Shown here one piece after another: positions 10,144-63,826 of a DNA stretch of 64,000 bases. The stretch's first letter is position 1, and every line of letters starts with the position of its first letter. The translations under genes were made by a program, and so were the position numbers. Origin of the DNA: a virus; the IMG/VR virus record IMGVR_UViG_3300047476_000577, positions 40,247-104,246 of that record; one strand, 5' to 3'. The notes beneath the pieces were generated by a model. It was not told where the DNA came from. It did no database searches and saw only the letters and a list, made by a program, of their open reading frames with translations.

Positions 10144-10710
10144 TCAAGCAACGGCAACACTCTTCTTCCTACCGCGAGCTTTAGCTGCCTTAGGATCGAT
10201 ACTGTCTGCTTGTGCACGTAGCTCGGCTGCTTGTTTTTCAAACAATGCTGCTTGGTTACGCAAGTTTTGTGCAAGTGTAGCATCATCGATAACGCCGTCA
10301 TCGTGTTTAGCAACTGGACCATCGCCGGGTTGTACAGCGGCTGGATCGATACCGGAGTCAAGTTGAGACAAGCTACGATTTAGTTCGGATAGATTGATCT
10401 CGACGTCGATACGTGGACGCATAATTACACGTTCTGCAGGCACCTTACGAAGGAAACCTTTGCTGTGAAGTGTAGTTAGCATATTGCTACCGTCATAGAA
10501 GAATTGACGGTTTGCATACTCATAAAACTCTAGTGTTTCTTGTGCAGTTAGGCTTTCTACTGCATCCATTAGGTTTTGATGATAGCGGTCGGGTAGACTA
10601 TCTGTCTCCACGATTAGACAGCTTTGTGGCTCGTCTGGGAGTGAACGGAATACTACGATAACACGGTGACCGGTATCGCGTAGTGTTCCTACGTGTTTTA
10701 GAAATTTCAT
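10144..10710 (-). CDS. Conserved hypothetical phage protein
   Basis: 188-aa ORF with RBS-like AAAGA and biased codons. Confidence 0.65.
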   Translation of the reverse strand: MKFLKHVGTLRDTGHRVIVVFRSLPDEPQSCLIVETDSLPDRYHQNLMDAVESLTAQETLEFYEYANRQFFYDGSNMLTTLHSKGFLRKVPAERVIMRPRIDVEINLSELNRSLSQLDSGIDPAAVQPGDGPVAKHDDGVIDDATLAQNLRNQAALFEKQAAELRAQADSIDPKAAKARGRKKSVAVA

Positions 10711-10728
10711 CTCTGTGTGTCTTTCTAA

Positions 10729-10959
10729 TTAGGCGGCGTCTTCGCCAGTTGCAGTAGCGGCAGAAGACTCTGCTTGCTCTTGCTCGGCTTTGGCAGCAGC
10801 TTCTGCTTCGCGTTGAGCTTTAACAGCTTCAACAAAGGCAGTTAGCTTGTTATATACTGCGCCTACTACTGTAGCTTCGGCTGCTTTAAAGGCACCACGC
10901 TGTACTGCGGCGTCAATAATTTGTGCCGCGGCTGCTAAGTCTTGATCAGTTAGTTCCAT
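10729..10959 (-). CDS. Small Ala-rich hypothetical protein
   Basis: GAGG RBS; IIDAAVQRGAFKA segment. Confidence 0.65.
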   Translation of the reverse strand: MELTDQDLAAAAQIIDAAVQRGAFKAAEATVVGAVYNKLTAFVEAVKAQREAEAAAKAEQEQAESSAATATGEDAA

Positions 10960-11062
10960 TTTATACCTCTTAATTAAGTGTGTGTTTTATTTATTATGGT
11001 ATCTTATTATACAAAAAAGAAAGGCTACAGGTCAACTGTAGCCTTGTAATAAGTTCAAACTT

Positions 11063-12265
11063 TTATTTGTGCTTGAACTCGTAGTGTGCAGTTACGCCAA
11101 ACGGTGCTTCAATGTTTGGGCCGCCGTGTACTACGAATAGTGTGTCGCAGTAGTCTGGGTCACCCCATTCGCCGCAAGGGTAACCGTCTGTAAACATAAT
11201 GAACTGTTTGGGCTGGATATCCCGTTCTTTCATATATTCCCAGTTAGCTTCGAACATAGTACCACCACCGCCTTGAGGCTCGTAGTCTGCAATGTCATCG
11301 CCTGCATCACTGCTAAAGTCGCGCTCTGCGTACACTTGAGTATCGAAACACCAAATCTTAATGTTCCAACTATCAAAGGTACCCATAATGCCTTGAATCT
11401 CGCCAAGGAAGTCTTTAACCATATCGTTAGAGATACTACCTGAAGTGTCAATGGCAATACACACATCTACTTCTTCAGCAGGTAGCATACCCGGCAGCAC
11501 TGCACCAGTATGCCAGCTCTTGCGGCTAGGACGAGTAAACGAGTAGTCGTTTTTAATCATACTAGTCAATTGGATGCGGCACAGTTCTTGCCAAGGCATT
11601 TTTGGATCTGTAATGTTCTTAACAATACGATCTACGCCAGTCGGCAAATTGCCTGCACCAGCAGCCTGTGCTGCCTGGATAACTGCATCTTTAAGCTCGT
11701 CACGCAGAGCTTTGCGCTCTTCTTCGGTTAGCTTCTTGCCAATGCCGGACTTGCCGTCGCCATCACCGTCTTCGCTGTCGCCGTCACCTTCTAAGTCCAA
11801 GTGAGTGTCGAGTGTCATCTTAATAGTGACAGCATTTTCCATTAGCTTGTCGTAGACTTCGTCAGTAGTCATACCATCATACTGTCGGTCTGCGAGGATA
11901 GGAACTACCTTAATTACATCGCCAATGCGGTCACGAATGAGGCCGTTGTTAATAACATAGTCAGCCGCCATATTCCACACTTGGGGCTCACGCTCGCCTC
12001 GGCGTAGCATATGCTCGTAGACGCAGTGCATAACTTCGTGAGCAATTAGAAAGATGAGCTCACCGTCTGACAACTTAGAAACAAATTCGTCGTTATAGAA
12101 CAAATTACGACCATCTACTGCGGCAGTAGGAATACGGTCGCTGGCATCCACAATCTTAAGACGAGTTGCAAGGTTACCAAAGAACGGGTGATGCAATAGC
12201 AGTTTTACACGGGCTTTGGTAATACGATCTCGTTGCTTAGAAGCAGTTACAGTAGTCATTGTCAA
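11063..12265 (-). CDS. DUF2201-type metallopeptidase + vWA domain protein
   Basis: HEVMH zincin motif, MIDAS DTSGS, GGGT, FTDG. Confidence 0.9.
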   Translation of the reverse strand: MTMTTVTASKQRDRITKARVKLLLHHPFFGNLATRLKIVDASDRIPTAAVDGRNLFYNDEFVSKLSDGELIFLIAHEVMHCVYEHMLRRGEREPQVWNMAADYVINNGLIRDRIGDVIKVVPILADRQYDGMTTDEVYDKLMENAVTIKMTLDTHLDLEGDGDSEDGDGDGKSGIGKKLTEEERKALRDELKDAVIQAAQAAGAGNLPTGVDRIVKNITDPKMPWQELCRIQLTSMIKNDYSFTRPSRKSWHTGAVLPGMLPAEEVDVCIAIDTSGSISNDMVKDFLGEIQGIMGTFDSWNIKIWCFDTQVYAERDFSSDAGDDIADYEPQGGGGTMFEANWEYMKERDIQPKQFIMFTDGYPCGEWGDPDYCDTLFVVHGGPNIEAPFGVTAHYEFKHK

Positions 12266-12282
12266 TTCCTTATTAAGCCATT

Positions 12283-12311
12283 ATTATAGCACACTTGCAT
12301 TTATCGGTCAA
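12283..12311 (-). promoter_or_regulatory. Sigma70-type promoter
   Basis: TTGACC-17-TATAAT on the minus strand upstream of the vWA gene. Confidence 0.6.
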
Positions 12312-12316
12312 ATAGT

Positions 12317-12342
12317 AAAAAAGCGCCTTGCGGCGCTTTTTT
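12317..12342. terminator. Intrinsic terminator (bidirectional)
   Basis: AAAAAAGCGCC-TTGC-GGCGCTTTTTT. Confidence 0.75.
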
Positions 12343-13423
12343 AGGCAATGTCAATTACCAAGTGAGCGTACTTCTTAAAGAACTCTGGGAAGTTCTTGAG
12401 CTTCTTGTGCTGGAAAGGCAGCTCGTGAATCTTAAGAGCAGTGTGAGCACCCATAATAACCATTTCTGGTTCAAAGTTATCCATCATATACTGGATAAAG
12501 TTCTCACACATTGGATGCCAATCATCGAGCTTCTTCTCTTTAGAGAGATTCTCAAACGCAGCCTTGAGTTCGTAGCACAGACTAGTAGTCAGTGAGTACA
12601 TTGCAGACACTTCCTTAACCTTCAGGTCCTTGACCTTGCCTGCAAGGATCTCAGTAGGGTCTGGCAGTTTAGCGGCAATCTTGCGATGCGCCATAAACTT
12701 AATAGCAGTGCCTTCACCTACGCAACCTGCAACGATGTCGCTCATAGTACCTTCGCTGAGCTCGTCGGTTAGCATTTCGCTAACGAAACTCCAAGAGCGA
12801 GGAGTAGCGAAGCTACGGTCGTGAACTTTGGGGTCAAAGTTGTTGAGGTCGTTCTTAGCAAAAGTTAGGTAACCAACAACGTCCGGATGGACACCATTCT
12901 TAAGAGCCCAGTTGGACCAGTCAGCAAAGTCCACACGCAGTTCCAAGTGAATGAAACGGTTAGCCAGTGGGCTAGGCATACGGAAAGTAACGCCCTTGTC
13001 TGACATACGGTTACCTGCGGCAACGATGCCAACATTCTTAGGTAGCTTGTAAGTGCCAACACGGCGGTTAAGGATCAGCTGATAAGCCGCAGCCTGAACA
13101 GCAGGAGCCGCAGACACAAGCTCGTCCAAGAACAGGATAGCGTCACTGTCTTCGTCCTGCGGCAGTTCTGCAGGAGGAGCCCAGCTCATATTGTTGTCAG
13201 TGGAATTGTAGTACGGGATACCCTTAATGTCGGTGGGCTCCCAGAGGTTAAGACGAACGTCAATAACCTTACGACCAGTTGCAGAGCCGATTTGAGCAAT
13301 AAGGTCGCTCTTGCCAACGCCGGGGCCACCCCACAGCATAATAGGACGATCGCGTTTAAGTGCGTGACGGATAATGACGTCAGCTTCGGAAATTTTAACA
13401 GTACGGGTGTCAGTTGCAGACAT
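12341..13423 (-). CDS. MoxR-like AAA+ ATPase
   Basis: Walker A GGPGVGKS, Walker B LFLDE, AAGN, LANRF, TPRSW; paired with vWA gene. Confidence 0.9.
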   Translation of the reverse strand: MSATDTRTVKISEADVIIRHALKRDRPIMLWGGPGVGKSDLIAQIGSATGRKVIDVRLNLWEPTDIKGIPYYNSTDNNMSWAPPAELPQDEDSDAILFLDELVSAAPAVQAAAYQLILNRRVGTYKLPKNVGIVAAGNRMSDKGVTFRMPSPLANRFIHLELRVDFADWSNWALKNGVHPDVVGYLTFAKNDLNNFDPKVHDRSFATPRSWSFVSEMLTDELSEGTMSDIVAGCVGEGTAIKFMAHRKIAAKLPDPTEILAGKVKDLKVKEVSAMYSLTTSLCYELKAAFENLSKEKKLDDWHPMCENFIQYMMDNFEPEMVIMGAHTALKIHELPFQHKKLKNFPEFFKKYAHLVIDIA

Positions 13424-13543
13424 TTGGTGCTCCAGAAAAACTAAGTTAGAAAGTAATTGTATGCGATTTTGAATTTTGTGTCAAATTGCCTTGCAACTGA
13501 CTGGAATTTGTGGCCCGGAGCAACCCGGGCCAGGTTGCTCAAA

Positions 13544-52455: not shown

Positions 52456-52830
52456 TTATCGCACACTTTGCGCTCTTGCTGTAATTACGCCTTCCATATC
52501 ATTCTTTACAATAACGTTTTGATAAGTGTCTACAAAACCACTTGCGTGGTCAACTACTCTGTTATCGCATTCGTGATAGGTTCTAATGCGTTCATTACCT
52601 GCCAAGTAACGCTCAGTGTCTTTGTGGTAAAAATTGTGAACTCTAGACAAGCAAGTGATATAAGCACTGCGCTTATTATCTTCTCTACTACGACTGTTAG
52701 TTCCGTTAGCAGTTATCCCGGTAGGCTCGTGTATGCAACGGCAACAGTTTTGATGTTTGTTGCGATGTTGCCCACCTTTGCCAGTACCTGAAAACCACTC
52801 GTATCTAAACTGATCTTCGGTAATTTTCAT
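52456..52830 (-). CDS. Stand-alone GGQ peptidyl-tRNA hydrolase domain (class I release-factor-like)
   Basis: SGTGKGGQHRNK, HEPTGI, RSREDNK, ERIRTY..RVVDH; no stop-codon recognition domain. Confidence 0.85.
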   Translation of the reverse strand: MKITEDQFRYEWFSGTGKGGQHRNKHQNCCRCIHEPTGITANGTNSRSREDNKRSAYITCLSRVHNFYHKDTERYLAGNERIRTYHECDNRVVDHASGFVDTYQNVIVKNDMEGVITARAQSVR

Positions 52831-53757: not shown

Positions 53758-54891
53758 ATGAATACAGATGACTTAATCAACAGCAAAAAATGTAGCATAC
53801 CTTGGTTGCATACTGAAATAAATTTACAGAACAACAGTGTTATGCCTTGCTGTAAGTACACAAAATCTATCGGTACTCCCGACAACTTTATTCAAGTATG
53901 GAGTAACGACCATTATAAAAAGCTAAGAGCAGATACTGCTCAAGGCAAGTTACACGCAGGTTGTGTTAAGTGCTATGTACCATCTAACGAATTTTCGTAT
54001 AAAGACTTAAAAAATCTTGCATACAAAAATAAATTAGTAGCTGACGTAGATAGCTTTAAATTCCCTCAGGCCTTCTGTATAAGTTTAACAAATACGTGCA
54101 CTCTAGCTTGCAGGATGTGTCATCCTAACTCAAGTTCTAAACTAGCAGAACTATCCAATAAAAGCGCCTTCTTAAAGCCTTTTTATAATCAAAATGCTAT
54201 GCAAAATACCTTTAACTTATCAAAGCTAAAAGGAGCGTTTGTTGATGCAAGACGTATTACTATTACAGGCGGCGAACCTTTAATTGATTCTACTTGCAGT
54301 GACTTAATTGCGTTAGTAGCAACCGAATCTCCACACTTAGAGGAAGTAATATTTTCAAGTAGTCTTGTAACTTACAACAAGAAGTTAATCGAACAACTAC
54401 GACAACTATCTGCCAAAGTAAGAATAAACATAAGCATAGACGGGCCAATTAACGTACACGAATACATACGTGTTGGATTCGATTGGCAACGTATGCTAGA
54501 AAACATACACAGTCTTAAAGACTTTGTAGAGTTTGGAATCAACTCTACTGTTAGTTTACTAAACGTAGGTTATATTCCAGAACTGCTAGATGCTATAAAG
54601 AATATTAGCAACGAGACTGGAATAACACTAAAGTATCTAATGACTAGCCCTGTGTTAGAAAAACATCTGCACGTAGGCAATTTACCGACACACATCAAAC
54701 AACAATATTTGAAAAAGCTAGAGCTAGCAAGTCCTAGTATACCCGGTAGCGATAAACTAATTGCCACGGCTAAGAATTTACTAGCACTTGAAAGAAACGA
54801 GTTAGAATTGACTAAACAATTTTTAGCCGAATTCGATAGTATTACAAATACAGATTACAGGCTTGTGTATCCAGAATTTGCAAACTTGTAA
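53758..54891 (+). CDS. Radical SAM protein with N-terminal SPASM/Twitch-like domain
   Basis: CSIPW..PCC..CVKC, then CTLACRMC, TGGEP, SIDG. Confidence 0.88.
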   Translation: MNTDDLINSKKCSIPWLHTEINLQNNSVMPCCKYTKSIGTPDNFIQVWSNDHYKKLRADTAQGKLHAGCVKCYVPSNEFSYKDLKNLAYKNKLVADVDSFKFPQAFCISLTNTCTLACRMCHPNSSSKLAELSNKSAFLKPFYNQNAMQNTFNLSKLKGAFVDARRITITGGEPLIDSTCSDLIALVATESPHLEEVIFSSSLVTYNKKLIEQLRQLSAKVRINISIDGPINVHEYIRVGFDWQRMLENIHSLKDFVEFGINSTVSLLNVGYIPELLDAIKNISNETGITLKYLMTSPVLEKHLHVGNLPTHIKQQYLKKLELASPSIPGSDKLIATAKNLLALERNELELTKQFLAEFDSITNTDYRLVYPEFANL

Positions 54892-56567: not shown

Positions 56568-56690
56568 AACTGGTTCGCATTTTTATCCTATCCATTAGAC
56601 GACAGTGGTGACCAACTCCACCGCTGGGATTCGAACCCAGATCTTCTTTGTTCAAAAAAGTTAAAATATAAATTGCTGAAACGAACCGAG
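56568..56690 (-). ncRNA. CAGCA-handle RNA 5: permuted tRNA (YrlA-like)
   Basis: GGTTCG/CGAACC handle; T-arm CTGGG-TTCGAAT-CCCAG, looped acceptor CGGTGG/CCACTG, D-arm. Confidence 0.8.
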
Positions 56691-56699
56691 GTCAAAAAC

Positions 56700-56760
56700 A
56701 ACAGGATGCTTATTTTTCAATTAACAGTTGAATTATTAAATTTGCTGAACGCATCCTAAA
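56700..56760 (-). ncRNA. CAGCA-handle RNA 6 with Asn-GUU anticodon stem-loop
   Basis: GGATGC/GCATCC handle; cargo TTCAA-CTGTTAA-TTGAA. Confidence 0.8.
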
Positions 56761-56997: not shown

Positions 56998-57401
56998 AAA
57001 ACTTTAGACTACTCGACCCGTTCATAACTGCGACCAAGCAGCCTGGGGACGGATGTTTCATCACGGTGGAATAACATTCTGCTGGTTAGGCGTCCTGCTT
57101 CTTCGACCTTTATATAAAAATACACTAGCCGACCCTGGGATTTTAACCCAGAATTCATATTAGTTTTGCACGAGTTTTACGCTCGGTCAACTAGTGTATC
57201 ACAAATGAAATAGTGTCACAGTGTTCTTGTTACGTTCCACCTAGGCTGAACAGCATTTGCAACTGAACGAACGGATATTCTGAGTACCCATTTTTAACAG
57301 CTATGATCCACCATATTGAAGTATACTACTTGCTATGCCGGCCACTATCACTTACCGCGGAGTTGTGCGCCTTCCAGCTCCTTATGCAATACACTTCAAT
57401 A

Positions 57402-58204: not shown

Positions 58205-58636
58205 TCAGCAAAGCAATTCTTTAACAATTCTAGATGCTATAGCACCATCGTAAGTACCTTCGTACTTTTGTTTAAATTCTTTAAGCACTGCACCCATAGC
58301 TTTAGGGCCCGATACACCTAGTGTACTTACTAGGTCACTAGCAGCTACTCGGATGTCTTGTTCTGACATCTGTGCTGGTACAAAAGTCACGAGAACAGAG
58401 TTCTCCATCTGTAGTGTAGCTATGACTCCTGCGTCGGTTACTCTACTCAAAGTTTCTTCGTTGTTCTTGATGAACTTCTTAACTACAGCGATTGCTTCTG
58501 CATCTGTAGTGTCGCGATTCGCATTTTTACCTACCATTGCGACTTCTGATAAAAGAGTCACAAGTAGGCTAGCACTAGGGGCTTTGGCTTTCCTAGCTTC
58601 AACGCTTGCAGATTTAATAGTTTCTAAAATTGACAT
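58205..58636 (-). CDS. GatB/YqeY domain protein
   Basis: ARKAK, VVKKFIK, FVPAQMSEQDI, MGAVLK..K..G.YDG. Confidence 0.85.
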   Translation of the reverse strand: MSILETIKSASVEARKAKAPSASLLVTLLSEVAMVGKNANRDTTDAEAIAVVKKFIKNNEETLSRVTDAGVIATLQMENSVLVTFVPAQMSEQDIRVAASDLVSTLGVSGPKAMGAVLKEFKQKYEGTYDGAIASRIVKELLC

Positions 58637-59788: not shown

Positions 59789-59905
59789 TGGAGCCGCCGG
59801 AGGGACTCGAACCCCCATCACTTCCTTCGAATGGAAAAATGAATTGCTGCACGTATCCTTAACAGGATCACCTTTTAAGTGTCCTAACCATTAGACGACA
59901 GCGGC
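59789..59905 (-). ncRNA. CAGCA-handle RNA 8: CCA-ended tRNA body with the handle in place of the anticodon arm
   Basis: GCCGCTG/CGGCGGC-T-CCA, D- and T-arms; internal GTGATCCTG-TTA-AGGATACGTGCAGCAA. Confidence 0.8.
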
Positions 59906-61507: not shown

Positions 61508-61584
61508 TGGTGGGACTGCTCGGACTCGAACCGAGACTCTTACCGGTTAAAAGCCGGATGTTTTAGCCATTAAACTACAATCCC
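61508..61584 (-). tRNA. tRNA-Lys(UUU)
   Basis: Anticodon arm CCGG-CTTTTAA-CCGG, CCA. Confidence 0.92.
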
Positions 61585-62299: not shown

Positions 62300-62394
62300 A
62301 TAAATTTCGATGCTGGTCTTGGGACTTGTACCCCAGAACTCCATTTCCCTCGACAACACGTCAGGGCGAGTCTGTTTCCTTCTTGCAAGAAATT

Positions 62395-62471
62395 TGGTGC
62401 CGCCACGTGGGCTCGAACCACGGACCCCCGCCTTATCAAGACGGTGCTCTAACCAACTGAGCTATGGAGGC
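62395..62471 (-). tRNA. tRNA-Ile(GAU)
   Basis: Cloverleaf, CCA. Confidence 0.92.
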
Positions 62472-62476
62472 AATAT

Positions 62477-62543
62477 AACAGGATGCTTTTTTACGGGTTT
62501 GATTAAAAGTCAAATGTATAAAGTTTGCTGAACGCATCCTAAA
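62477..62543 (-). ncRNA. CAGCA-handle RNA 9 with Lys-UUU anticodon stem-loop
   Basis: GGATGC/GCATCC handle; cargo TTTGA-CTTTTAA-TCAAA. Confidence 0.8.
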
Positions 62544-62721
62544 TTTAGAGTCTAGTGCTATTACGACATAGCAGCATCCCTTGAGCGAGAGCGTAGGAAC
62601 TTAATCTACGGGTTTAACACCTCTTGGGTCGAACAGCCAGGACAACTACTTGCATTCACTCCGCATAACTTGTTCAAGGTTATGTTTCACTACTAACTTT
62701 CATTTCCAACCAGACGTAACT

Positions 62722-62796
62722 TGGAGCGGGTAGCGGGAATCGAACCCGCAACTTAACCTTGGCAAGGTTGTGTGTTACCACTAGCACCATACCCGC
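62722..62796 (-). tRNA. tRNA-Gly(GCC)
   Basis: Cloverleaf, CCA. Confidence 0.93.
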
Positions 62797-63069: not shown

Positions 63070-63161
63070 TGGCGGGGAGATAGTAGAATCGAACTCTAAG
63101 CTGCTCATCACAACTCCATCGGTTTTCAAGACCGTGCCAGACCCAGTCTGGATAACTCCCC
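63070..63161 (-). tRNA. tRNA-Ser(UGA)
   Basis: Long variable arm, G73, CCA. Confidence 0.88.
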
Positions 63162-63500: not shown

Positions 63501-63590
63501 TGGTGGAGAGTGATGGAATCGAACCACTTGGCTAGCCACCCCACTTAACAAAGCCTACCGGGTTACAGCCGGCAACGGGGAACACCCTCC
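63501..63590 (-). tRNA. D-armless tRNA-Tyr(GUA)
   Basis: GGAGGGT/ACTCTCC-A-CCA, 10-nt linker instead of a D-arm, loop CTGTAAC, 28-nt variable region. Confidence 0.7.
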
Positions 63591-63826
63591 AGTATTCTAA
63601 AGTACATTAAAACATTGACCGAAAGCAGTGCAAAACGGTTGCAGTAATGTACTTTAGAATACCCTGTATTTCTACAGGATATGACAGGGTTATACCCTGC
63701 CCAGTAATTTTTCACTCCACACAAGGAGCTTCATCCTACTGTCCGCCCTTTTACAACTTATTATAGTGTGTTGTCAGGTCTACGTTACCTGGCCATATAG
63801 GACTTATTTTAACACTTGCTTAAAGC

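What the first reader, a model, noticed from the sequence alone, without database searches (positions are those of the whole stretch)
62477..62543. Handle RNA displaying a host-type tRNA-Lys(UUU) anticodon stem-loop
Seen: cargo TTTGA-CTTTTAA-TCAAA. Known: the E. coli tRNA-Lys arm is GTTGA-CTTTTAA-TCAAT, and tRNA-Lys(UUU) is the target of PrrC and PARIS AriB. The phage's own tRNA-Lys has a different stem (CCGG/CCGG). Inference: the phage pairs a potentially resistant tRNA with a cleavable-looking decoy or tripwire held by the Ro-like protein.
Basis: partly seen in the sequence, partly recalled or inferred. Interest (0 to 1): 0.85.

Follow-up and report, generated by a model that had tools for sequence, protein, structure and literature searches.

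The report
Anticodon-arm mimic on phage Y-like RNA
A 64-base RNA gene in a giant freshwater phage's tRNA cluster pairs a conserved "handle", shared by RNAs that travel with the phage's Ro60-shaped protein, with a faithful copy of a lysine-tRNA anticodon arm; the structure is real and conserved, but its proposed role as bait for tRNA-cutting defence enzymes is untested.

Summary
**Observation: confirmed.**
- On the minus strand, 62477-62540 forms a 7-bp closing helix, the loop GUUCAGCAA, a short middle helix and an apical 5-bp/7-nt hairpin, UUUGA-CUUUUAA-UCAAA.
- Across 19 orthologues from related phages both helices are 100% paired, with 7 covarying pairs.
- C32, U33, U34, U36, A37, A38 and U39 are invariant. 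Only position 35 varies (U, C or G).

**Context.**
- The RNA fills a tRNA slot, 5 nt before tRNA-Ile.
- Seventy-three of 80 related loci encoding the DUF2828+DUF7788 protein carry such RNAs, all on the gene's strand.
- One sibling matches Rfam YrlA in full but below threshold.
- The protein model (pLDDT 92) matches only Ro60 structures over its full length.
- This is therefore a Y-RNA-like partner RNA with a selected anticodon-arm mimic.

- The cargo matches the E. coli lysT arm at 15 of 17 positions.
- The phage's own tRNA-Lys has a CCGG stem.
- The cargo keeps U36AAUC|A41, the published cleavage site of PARIS AriB. The phage's own tRNA-Lys does not.

**Against it.**
- The host is unknown.
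- The stem drifts among orthologues, so "host-type" is not shown.
- Orthologues show UGU and UCU as often as UUU.
- The phage's own tRNA-Asn genes keep the AriB site.
- Binding, cleavage and expression as a small RNA are unshown.

The same scan had already noted the Asn-type sibling RNA.

The parts
62477..62540 (-). The 64-nt handle RNA with a Lys-like anticodon-arm cargo (the finding)
   Evidence: Sequence. Model R1 scores it 89.7 bits.
62534..62540 (-). P1 5' strand, AGGAUGC (handle helix)
   Evidence: Pairs with 62480-62486. 100% paired in 19 orthologues, 4 of 7 pairs covary.
62525..62533 (-). Conserved single-stranded motif GUUCAGCAA, the presumed protein-binding site
   Evidence: Nearly invariant in A1. 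It defines the family: 7 window copies against 1.3 expected. Its position matches the GNCGAA motif of YrlA (PMC4201824), but the sequence differs.
62516..62518 (-). P2 5' strand, UAC (short middle helix, pairs with GUA at 62492-62494)
   Evidence: A-U changes to G-C at alignment columns 25/49 in 3 orthologues. 87% of cells paired.
62498..62514 (-). Apical anticodon-arm mimic, UUUGA-CUUUUAA-UCAAA (5-bp stem, 7-nt loop)
   Evidence: Stem 100% paired with 3 covarying pairs. Loop positions 32, 33, 34, 36, 37, 38 and U39 are invariant. 15 of 17 identical to E. coli lysT.
62480..62486 (-). P1 3' strand, GCAUCCU
62477..62479 (-). Conserved 3' tail, GUU
   Evidence: Invariant in A1. GTT follows 201 of 310 family members.
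62395..62471 (-). Downstream tRNA-Ile(GAU), 5 nt after the RNA. RNase P cleavage at its 5' end would set the RNA's 3' end (inferred).
   Evidence: ARAGORN and Rfam. In relatives the flanking tRNAs lie 5-7 nt away.
62722..62796 (-). Upstream tRNA-Gly(GCC). It is separated from the RNA here by a strain-specific block of about 180 nt.
   Evidence: Metatranscriptome contigs join 62541 to 62718.
47271..48689 (-). Ro60-like protein gene (Pfam DUF2828 + DUF7788; helical ring plus vWA domain with MIDAS), the presumed protein partner
   Evidence: Pfam match. AlphaFold model at pLDDT 92. Its 11 best PDB matches are all Ro60 structures. DxSxS is invariant.
56700..56757 (-). Sibling handle RNA with cargo UUCAA-CUGUUAA-UUGAA (Asn-like)
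   Evidence: R1 scores it 61.8 bits. Sequence.
49292..49416 (-). Sibling handle RNA with a tRNA-like domain (YrlA-like)
   Evidence: Rfam RF02553 at 40.3 bits, E 4.8e-6, full model length, below the gathering score of 69.

Best explanation
**What it is.** A small non-coding RNA of the Y-RNA type.

**How it is made (inferred).** It is transcribed with the minus-strand tRNA array. The enzymes that mature its tRNA neighbours then free it, with RNase P cleavage at tRNA-Ile 5 nt downstream.

**Handle (binding inferred by analogy with Ro60 and Y RNA).** The closing 7-bp helix, the adjoining GUUCAGCAA and A-rich internal loop, and the GUU tail form the part bound by the phage's Ro60-like DUF2828/vWA protein.

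**Cargo (shown by conservation).** The far end is a selected mimic of an anticodon arm of the ANN-decoding type: C32, U33, U34, N35, U36, A37, A38, U39.

**Mechanism I consider most likely (speculative).** The RNP offers this arm as bait to a host factor that recognises anticodon arms. The leading candidate is a tRNA-targeting defence nuclease of the PARIS-AriB, PrrC or Cas13 kind. The bait would compete with, or be cut in place of, host tRNA-Lys/Thr/Asn/Arg. The phage's own tRNA-Lys, with its different stem, would keep translation going.

**Probabilities.**
- The anatomy (a real RNA gene, a Y-like handle, a selected anticodon-arm mimic): about 0.8.
- The bait mechanism: about 0.3.
For: **Structure**
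- Covariation in both helices and an invariant loop.
- The 5-bp/7-nt CUNNNAA hairpin is enriched in short family members: 33 loops against 0.08 expected.
- CUNNNAA is also the commonest anticodon-loop frame of these phages' genuine tRNAs, 248 of 487.

**Link to the protein**
- 73 of 80 DUF2828 loci carry family members, 146 of 146 on the gene's strand, and 28 end within 200 nt upstream of the gene.
- A sibling RNA matches Rfam YrlA over the full model.
- The protein model matches Ro60 from Xenopus, human, Deinococcus and Thermus phage phiLo, at TM 0.43-0.63 and E 3e-8 to 5e-6.
- Mycobacteriophage homologues are annotated as Ro-like RNA-binding proteins.
- Phage Ro60 proteins bind Y-like RNAs encoded upstream of their genes (PMC12135203, PMC4201824).

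**Processing**
- Family members lie 5-7 nt from the flanking tRNAs.
- No promoter stands out and there is no terminator nearby.

**Bait idea**
- AriB cuts U36AAUC|A41 in tRNA-Lys(UUU), Thr(UGU) and Asn(GUU), and a U39A change abolishes cleavage (PMC12409363).
- The cargo has UAAUCA. UAAU is invariant in the 19 orthologues. The commonest displayed anticodons are UGU and UUU.
- The phage's own tRNA-Lys reads UAACCG.
- Activated Cas13b6 cleaves isolated anticodon stem-loops (PMC13692257).
- A Ro60-like protein of coliphage Bas63, encoded beside its tRNA genes, counters a defence system (PMC11482910).
Against: - There is no evidence that the RNA accumulates as a small RNA. Metatranscriptome contigs cover it, but contigs cannot show ends or rule out DNA.
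- No binding data exist. The handle motif CAGCAA differs from the GNCGAA of known Y RNAs.
- The host and its defence systems are unknown.
- AriB needs contacts beyond the anticodon arm (PMC12409363), so a bare arm may not be cut.
- The phage's own tRNA-Asn genes, and some tRNA-Thr genes in related phages, keep UAAUCA.
- UCU (Arg) cargos are common, but tRNA-Arg is not a reported AriB target.
- Other family classes show loops such as CUUGAAA, CUGUAAA and CUGCAAA, or loops unlike anticodon loops.
- In E. coli phage SUSP1 and Citrobacter phage Ci1 the cargos are mostly not anticodon-like.
- The record holds neither RtcB nor RNA ligase. Near-complete relatives lack RtcB, and one shows only a sub-threshold RNA-ligase match.
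Confidence: 0.35

Rival explanations
1. Tether for a factor unrelated to defence. As Y RNA tethers Ro60 to PNPase, the anticodon-arm module would recruit a tRNA-anticodon-binding enzyme to the Ro60-like protein. Candidates are the t6A37 or MnmE/G modification enzymes, MiaA for the NNA-AA loops, a tRNA synthetase that reads the anticodon, or the ribosomal decoding site. Alternatively the RNA would soak up such an enzyme to change the modification state of host tRNAs.
For: - Y RNAs are modular tethers, and YrlA is modified by tRNA enzymes (PMC4201824).
- The invariant U36-A37-A38 with a free position 35 is the signature shared by all ANN-decoding tRNAs. This is my own knowledge of the t6A determinants, not tested here.
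- Other classes carry A36-A37-A38 loops, the signature of MiaA substrates (own knowledge).
- The variety of displayed anticodons fits a class-level recognition better than a single nuclease.
Against: - No candidate enzyme is linked in the locus.
- It offers no reason why the stem 3' side keeps U39.
- It offers no reason why the phage's own tRNA-Lys avoids UAAUCA.
- It is untested.
Confidence: 0.22
2. Ordinary Y-RNA role, with the cargo incidental. The RNA would gate or regulate the Ro60-like protein in RNA quality control or decay, or autoregulate it. The apical loop would be conserved because the protein itself, or folding, needs it. Its likeness to an anticodon arm would reflect descent from tRNA genes in the array.
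For: - Bacteria and phages have second, short hairpin Y RNAs (YrlB, Yrn2, Yrl2) with small pyrimidine-rich loops (PMC4201824, PMC12135203).
- In the SUSP1 and Ci1 phages the short family members carry loops that are not anticodon-like.
- The cargo stem resembles the phage's own tRNA-Asn arm, 14 of 17.
Against: - Loop length and the CU...AA frame are kept across several paralogous classes while the central triplet changes. That fits mimicry of a generic anticodon loop better than one protein-specific motif.
- Six of seven loop positions are invariant while the stem covaries.
Confidence: 0.25
3. Not a functional RNA. It would be a spacer, a processing signal or the decayed remnant of a tRNA gene inside the array.
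For: - It lies in a tRNA slot.
- The sequence is AU-rich and the MFE z-score is only -1.75.
Against: - Covarying helices and an invariant loop are kept across phages whose Ro60-like proteins are only 53-62% identical to this one.
- The family is spread widely and is linked by strand to one protein gene.
- It has no acceptor, D or T arm remnants.
Confidence: 0.06

Closest known systems
Bacterial and phage Y RNAs with Ro60: YrlA/YrlB (Rfam RF02553; Chen et al. 2014, PMC4201824) and Yrl1/Yrl2 of Thermus phage phiLo (PMC12135203)
   Same: - Small RNAs encoded beside a Ro60-fold protein gene on the same strand.
- The 5' and 3' ends pair in a terminal helix, with a conserved 5'-side motif next to it.
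- The design is modular: a protein-binding stem plus an effector module.
- There are several paralogous RNAs per genome, including short hairpin forms.
- They mimic tRNA. One sibling here (49292-49416) aligns to the whole YrlA model.
   Different: - This RNA has no T or D arm and gets no Rfam hit.
- The handle motif is GUUCAGCAA, not GNCGAA.
- The mimicked part is the anticodon arm. YrlA lacks that arm, because its Ro-binding stem takes that place.
- The protein matches Pfam DUF2828/DUF7788 rather than TROVE.
- D. radiodurans Yrn1 has only a possible anticodon arm, with a 6-nt loop (PMC4201824).
Phage tRNAs that escape tRNA-targeting defences, such as T5 tRNA-Lys(UUU) against PARIS AriB (PMC11464382, PMC12409363)
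   Same: - They are encoded in a phage tRNA cluster.
- They concern the same anticodon arms: Lys UUU, Thr UGU, Asn GUU.
- The window's own tRNA-Lys differs from the E. coli type at U39 and A41, the positions T5 changes.
   Different: - Those are complete, chargeable tRNAs that replace cut host tRNAs.
- This RNA cannot be charged, and it keeps the cleavable-looking site rather than losing it.
- A decoy role for a viral RNA of this kind has not been shown.
Ro60-like gp130 of coliphage Bas63, a counter of the ppl defence system (PhageMaP preprint, PMC11482910)
   Same: - A Ro60-fold phage protein encoded next to the tRNA gene stretch and linked to anti-defence.
- The authors suggest that some of the 'tRNA' genes may be Y RNAs.
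   Different: - I did not check whether gp130 belongs to the DUF2828 family.
- No partner RNA has been identified there.
- ppl is thought to degrade DNA, not tRNA.

Membership tests
Y RNA / YrlA (Rfam RF02553) | Reaches the family's covariance-model gathering score | tested here: not met
   There is no YrlA hit at 62477-62543 even at E up to 5. The sibling at 49292-49416 scores 40.3 bits against a gathering score of 69.
Y RNA / YrlA (Rfam RF02553) | Encoded close to a Ro60 orthologue | tested here: met
   It lies on the same strand about 14 kb upstream of the Ro60-fold gene, in one tRNA/RNA array. In 73 of 80 related loci family members lie within 10 kb of the gene, and in 28 within 200 nt upstream of it.
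Y RNA / YrlA (Rfam RF02553) | Terminal helix formed by the 5' and 3' ends, with the GNCGAA(N)G motif near the 5' end | tested here: inconclusive
   The covarying terminal helix is present. The motif in the matching position reads GUUCAGCAA, not GNCGAA (PMC4201824).
Y RNA / YrlA (Rfam RF02553) | tRNA-like domain with T and D arms | tested here: not met
   The only interior elements are a 3-bp helix and one 5-bp/7-nt hairpin.
Y RNA / YrlA (Rfam RF02553) | Bound and stabilised by the Ro60 protein | not testable with these tools
   This needs co-purification or EMSA.
tRNA | Cloverleaf with acceptor, D and T arms | tested here: not met
   Neither ARAGORN nor Rfam calls a tRNA here.
tRNA anticodon arm (mimicry, not membership) | 5-bp stem and 7-nt loop with pyrimidine-32, U33, purine-37 | tested here: met
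   The arm is UUUGA-CUUUUAA-UCAAA. It is 15 of 17 identical to E. coli lysT, in the same frame as 51% of the genuine tRNAs of related phages, and conserved with covariation.
Ro60 / TROVE proteins (the partner protein) | Pfam TROVE (PF05731) sequence match | tested here: not met
   There is no TROVE match in the 104-kb record. The protein matches DUF2828 and DUF7788, and phmmer against the PDB finds nothing.
Ro60 / TROVE proteins (the partner protein) | Helical-repeat ring plus a C-terminal vWA domain with a MIDAS motif | tested here: met
   The model has pLDDT 92 and pTM 0.89. Its 11 best PDB matches are full-length Ro60 structures (1yvp, 2i91, 2nvo, 9l5y, 9nep) at TM up to 0.63. D280, S282 and S284 are invariant in 63 homologues.
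Substrate or decoy of anticodon-arm nucleases (AriB, PrrC) | Carries the AriB site U36AAUC|A41 | tested here: met
   The cargo reads U-A-A-U-C-A at positions 36-41 (the site is from PMC12409363). UAAU is invariant in 19 orthologues, C40 occurs in 14 and A41 in 9.
Substrate or decoy of anticodon-arm nucleases (AriB, PrrC) | Actually bound or cut by such a nuclease, and protects the phage | not testable with these tools
   This needs cleavage and plating assays. AriB also requires contacts outside the arm (PMC12409363).

The most novel reading that the evidence does not exclude
Ro60-like phage proteins carry a set of interchangeable RNA baits, each showing a different anticodon arm (UUU, UGU, UCU, GUU, GUA, UGA and others). 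This would be an RNA-based, easily retargeted anti-defence RNP that absorbs or senses host nucleases aimed at tRNA anticodon arms. Single-base changes at position 35 would retune it between Lys, Thr and Arg mimicry.
Probability: 0.25. Interest if true: 0.85.

Novelty: new variant of a known kind. Interest (0 to 1): 0.62.

Why it matters
- **Function of Y RNAs.** Ro60 and Y RNAs have been known for forty years, yet what their variable modules do is clear in only a few cases. In phages their role is almost unexplored.
- **A readable module.** Here the variable module is an anticodon arm, kept by selection, with the displayed triplet changing between related phages. That gives a direct hypothesis for the ligand: something that reads anticodon arms.
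- **Link to phage defence.** It connects Ro60 RNPs to the fast-growing field of tRNA-targeting phage defence (PrrC, PARIS, retrons, Cas13).
- **Tractability.** The same protein family and handle RNAs occur in culturable phages of E. coli, Salmonella, Citrobacter, Listeria and Mycobacterium. Protein-RNA binding and defence phenotypes can therefore be tested at the bench.

Tried and rejected
- **Single-sequence AlphaFold model of the protein.** It came out at pLDDT 46 and was discarded. It was redone with a 63-sequence alignment.
- **Loop census by free-energy folding of short family members.** AU-rich stems misfold, so the result is unreliable. I replaced it with an explicit scan for 5-bp/7-nt hairpins with shuffled controls.
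- **Megablast of the region against isolated phages.** It found only tRNA pieces.
- **Scan of IMG/VR for the 16-nt handle motif.** Most hits were single chance matches. The useful loci came from the protein search and the covariance model.
- **phmmer of the protein against PDB sequences and Pfam TROVE in the record.** No match. The Ro60 likeness shows only at the fold level.
- **RtcB and RNA ligase.**
  - The record has no match to either.
  - Five related records, two of them at least 90% complete, have no RtcB match and one sub-threshold RNA-ligase match.
  - The window's record is only a fragment, so absence there proves nothing.
- **Metatranscriptome contigs.**
  - Contigs from one study cover 62426-62541.
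  - Contigs cannot show RNA ends, strand or level, and DNA carry-over is possible.
  - The very high depth at 62362-62509 comes from conserved tRNA-Ile contigs of other organisms.
- **Model R1 over two near-complete related genomes.** It found few members, and only 150 candidates per genome were scored, so no full census was possible.
- **Kissing-loop pairing with another tRNA's anticodon.** Considered and rejected. The complements of UUU, UGU and UCU are not standard bacterial anticodons (own knowledge).
- **Terminator or promoter role.** There are no terminator-like sites, and promoter-like sites are at the chance level.
- **Host assignment.** Not achieved.

Full report
**Setting.** The window is the last 64 kb of a 104-kb IMG/VR virus record estimated to be 29% complete, so the phage is a jumbo phage of roughly 350 kb. 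Near-identical DNA occurs in freshwater and aquatic metagenomes from a dozen studies. Everything relevant lies on the minus strand.
- A tRNA array of 42 ARAGORN calls runs from 63494 down to 49063.
- It is followed by a 472-aa gene at 48689-47271 that matches Pfam DUF2828 and DUF7788.

**The observation.** The minus strand of 62477-62540 reads AGGAUGC, GUUCAGCAA, ACUUUAUACA, UUUGA-CUUUUAA-UCAAA, CCCGU, AAAAAA, GCAUCCU, GUU.
- E. coli K-12 lysT has the arm GUUGA-CUUUUAA-UCAAU, so 15 of 17 positions agree.
- The phage's own tRNA-Lys(UUU) at 61508-61584 has UCCGG-CUUUUAA-CCGGU: the same loop on a different stem.

A single hairpin of this kind is not remarkable. The window has eight outside tRNAs, and shuffles give about 2.5 for the whole window. 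The folding z-score is only -1.75.

**It is a conserved, structured RNA.** The 5' motif AGGAUnnGUUCAGCA occurs seven times on the minus strand of the array, against 1.3 expected.
- The gene's product has 341 relatives in IMG/VR, the 80 best 53-62% identical.
- A scan of the fetched loci gave 310 distinct RNAs with the same 5' motif and a complementary 3' arm, mostly followed by GUU.

Nineteen close counterparts of the finding align over 67 columns. Pair counts on that alignment show:

| Feature | Result |
|---|---|
| Handle helix | 100% paired, 4 of 7 pairs change on both sides |
| Apical stem | 100% paired, 3 of 5 pairs change on both sides |
| Covariation score | 0.442, against 0.116 in shuffles (0 of 500 reach it) and at most 0.043 in slid controls |
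| 2-bp core of the middle helix | A-U to G-C switch in three sequences |
| Loop | C32, U33, U34, U36, A37, A38 and the closing A31-U39 pair invariant |
| Position 35 | U, C or G |

**The anticodon-arm shape is selected across the family.**
- Of 110 short members, 65 carry a 5-bp stem with a 7-nt loop, against 8.7 in shuffles. No other loop length is enriched.
- Thirty-three of the 72 loops are CUNNNAA, against 0.08 expected.
- CUNNNAA is also the commonest frame of genuine anticodon loops in these phages, 248 of 487 distinct tRNA arms.
- The triplets shown include UUU, UGU, UCU, CUU, GUU, GAU, GGU, GUA, GCA, UGA and UGG.
- Other family members carry unrelated hairpins or a whole tRNA-like domain.

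**Link to a Ro60-like protein.** A covariance model built from the 19 sequences finds 149 members in the window and 80 DUF2828 loci.
- Seventy-three of the 80 loci have at least one member.
- All 146 members outside the window lie on the gene's strand.
- In 28 loci a member ends within 200 nt upstream of the gene.
- One window sibling (49292-49416) aligns to the whole Rfam YrlA model at 40.3 bits, E 4.8e-6, below the gathering score of 69.

The protein has no Pfam TROVE match and no sequence match in the PDB.
- An AlphaFold model built on 63 homologues has pLDDT 92.
- Its 11 best PDB matches are full-length Ro60 structures from Xenopus, human, Deinococcus and Thermus phage phiLo (TM 0.43-0.63). 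Isolated vWA domains follow.
- The MIDAS residues DxSxS are invariant.
- The family is in 710 isolated phage genomes. These include mycobacteriophages whose copy is annotated "Ro-like RNA binding protein". Chen et al. also found YrlA-related sequences in bacteriophage genomes (PMC4201824).
- Phage phiLo Ro60 binds two Y-like RNAs encoded upstream of its gene (PMC12135203).

The finding is therefore best filed as a Y-RNA-like partner RNA. The binding itself is inferred.

**How it is probably made.** Family members sit in tRNA slots, 5-6 nt after the upstream tRNA and 5-7 nt before the next one.
- Here tRNA-Ile starts 5 nt after the GUU tail.
- Upstream, a block of about 180 nt separates the RNA from tRNA-Gly.
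- Metatranscriptome contigs from two runs of one study join 62541 directly to 62718. In that variant the RNA abuts tRNA-Gly as in the relatives.
- No terminator and no above-chance promoter lies nearby.
- Co-transcription with the tRNAs and release by tRNA-processing enzymes is inferred, not shown.
- The contigs show only that the stretch is present in RNA libraries.

Published work on PARIS gives it more substance than the stem difference alone.
- AriB cuts between positions 40 and 41 of tRNA-Lys(UUU), Thr(UGU) and, more weakly, Asn(GUU), within U36AAUC|A41.
- A U39A change abolishes cutting and A41C reduces it.
- T5 tRNA-Lys escapes through exactly these positions (PMC12409363).

How the sequences here compare:
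- The cargo reads UAAUCA.
- UAAU is invariant in all 19 orthologues.
- UGU and UUU are the commonest triplets in this class.
- The phage's own tRNA-Lys reads UAACCG.
- None of 15 distinct tRNA-Lys(UUU) genes in related phages has UAAUCA.
- At least one defence nuclease cleaves isolated anticodon stem-loops (PMC13692257).
- A Ro60-like protein of coliphage Bas63 counters a defence system (PMC11482910).

Evidence against the idea:
- The host is unknown, so "host-type" cannot be claimed.
- Stem positions 28-30 and 40-42 drift with compensation among orthologues.
- The cargo is nearly as close to the phage's own tRNA-Asn arm (14 of 17).
- Lys identity is not conserved.
- Both tRNA-Asn genes of the window keep UAAUCA.
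- UCU cargos do not match known AriB targets.
- AriB needs contacts outside the arm.
- In E. coli phage SUSP1 and Citrobacter phage Ci1 the handle RNAs mostly carry loops that are not anticodon-like.
- The record holds no RtcB or RNA ligase. Its near-complete relatives lack RtcB, and one has only a sub-threshold RNA-ligase match.

**Verdict.**
- The RNA gene, the Y-like handle and the selected anticodon-arm mimic are well supported, at about 0.8.
- The bait mechanism is the most specific reading compatible with the data, but it is untested, at about 0.3.
- A tether for tRNA enzymes and an ordinary Y-RNA role remain live.
- It is a new variant of a known kind: phage Ro60 with Y-like RNAs.
- The same scan had already described the Asn-type sibling at 56700-56757 and the family as a whole. 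My tests agree with those notes.

Noticed in passing
window 62541-62721 (minus strand): A block of about 180 nt lies between tRNA-Gly and the handle RNA. Metatranscriptome contigs from two runs of one study skip it, joining 62541 to 62718. It has no counterpart in any fetched locus and folds at -39.7 kcal/mol. It is either a strain-specific insertion or another RNA; its nature is unknown.
   Followed up: partly
window 59792-59905 (minus strand): A tRNA-like gene (Rfam tRNA, 41.9 bits) has acceptor, D and T arms, but its anticodon arm is replaced by a handle-like hairpin that carries the CCUGUU and GUGCAGCAA motifs. Citrobacter phage Ci1 has a similar 'tRNA-Pseudo' at L201:14018-14131, downstream of its DUF2828 gene.
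   Followed up: partly
window 56635-56688 (minus strand): A further, weaker family member (R1 25.3 bits) lies in tandem just after the Asn-type handle RNA.
   Followed up: no
window 63074-63161 (minus strand): Rfam calls this tRNA-Sec at 47.5 bits, just over threshold, and ARAGORN misses it. Read by eye, the anticodon loop is CUUGAAA (UGA) with a long variable arm, so it is probably tRNA-Ser(UGA), not Sec. A weaker similar hit lies at 63504-63591.
   Followed up: partly
loci L139, L141, L155, L161, L163-L165, L171, L173, L186: ARAGORN calls a tRNA with anticodon CUA (amber-reading, labelled Pyl) in many related phages. This hints at TAG suppression or recoding in part of this clade.
   Followed up: no
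L203 (Salmonella phage 7t3, 348 kb) 10429-13467: The DUF2828 gene follows an annotated RNA ligase gene, with two short ORFs between them. A CCA-adding/2',3'-cyclic phosphodiesterase gene lies 4 kb downstream. This echoes the rsr-rtcB link in bacteria. Citrobacter phage Ci1 also has a CCA-adding enzyme gene nearby.
   Followed up: no
window 52456-52830, 58205-58636, 53758-54891, 49717-50394: Protein genes lie among the tRNAs: an RF-1 domain protein (possibly a peptidyl-tRNA hydrolase), a YqeY-like protein, a radical SAM enzyme and an Asp/Asn beta-hydroxylase-like protein.
   Followed up: no
window 57273-57289 (minus strand): A hairpin shaped like an anticodon arm, GGGUA-CUCAGAA-UAUCC, lies in an unannotated stretch. 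A degenerate T-arm-like repeat sits at 57129-57150. This may be an uncalled tRNA-like gene.
   Followed up: no
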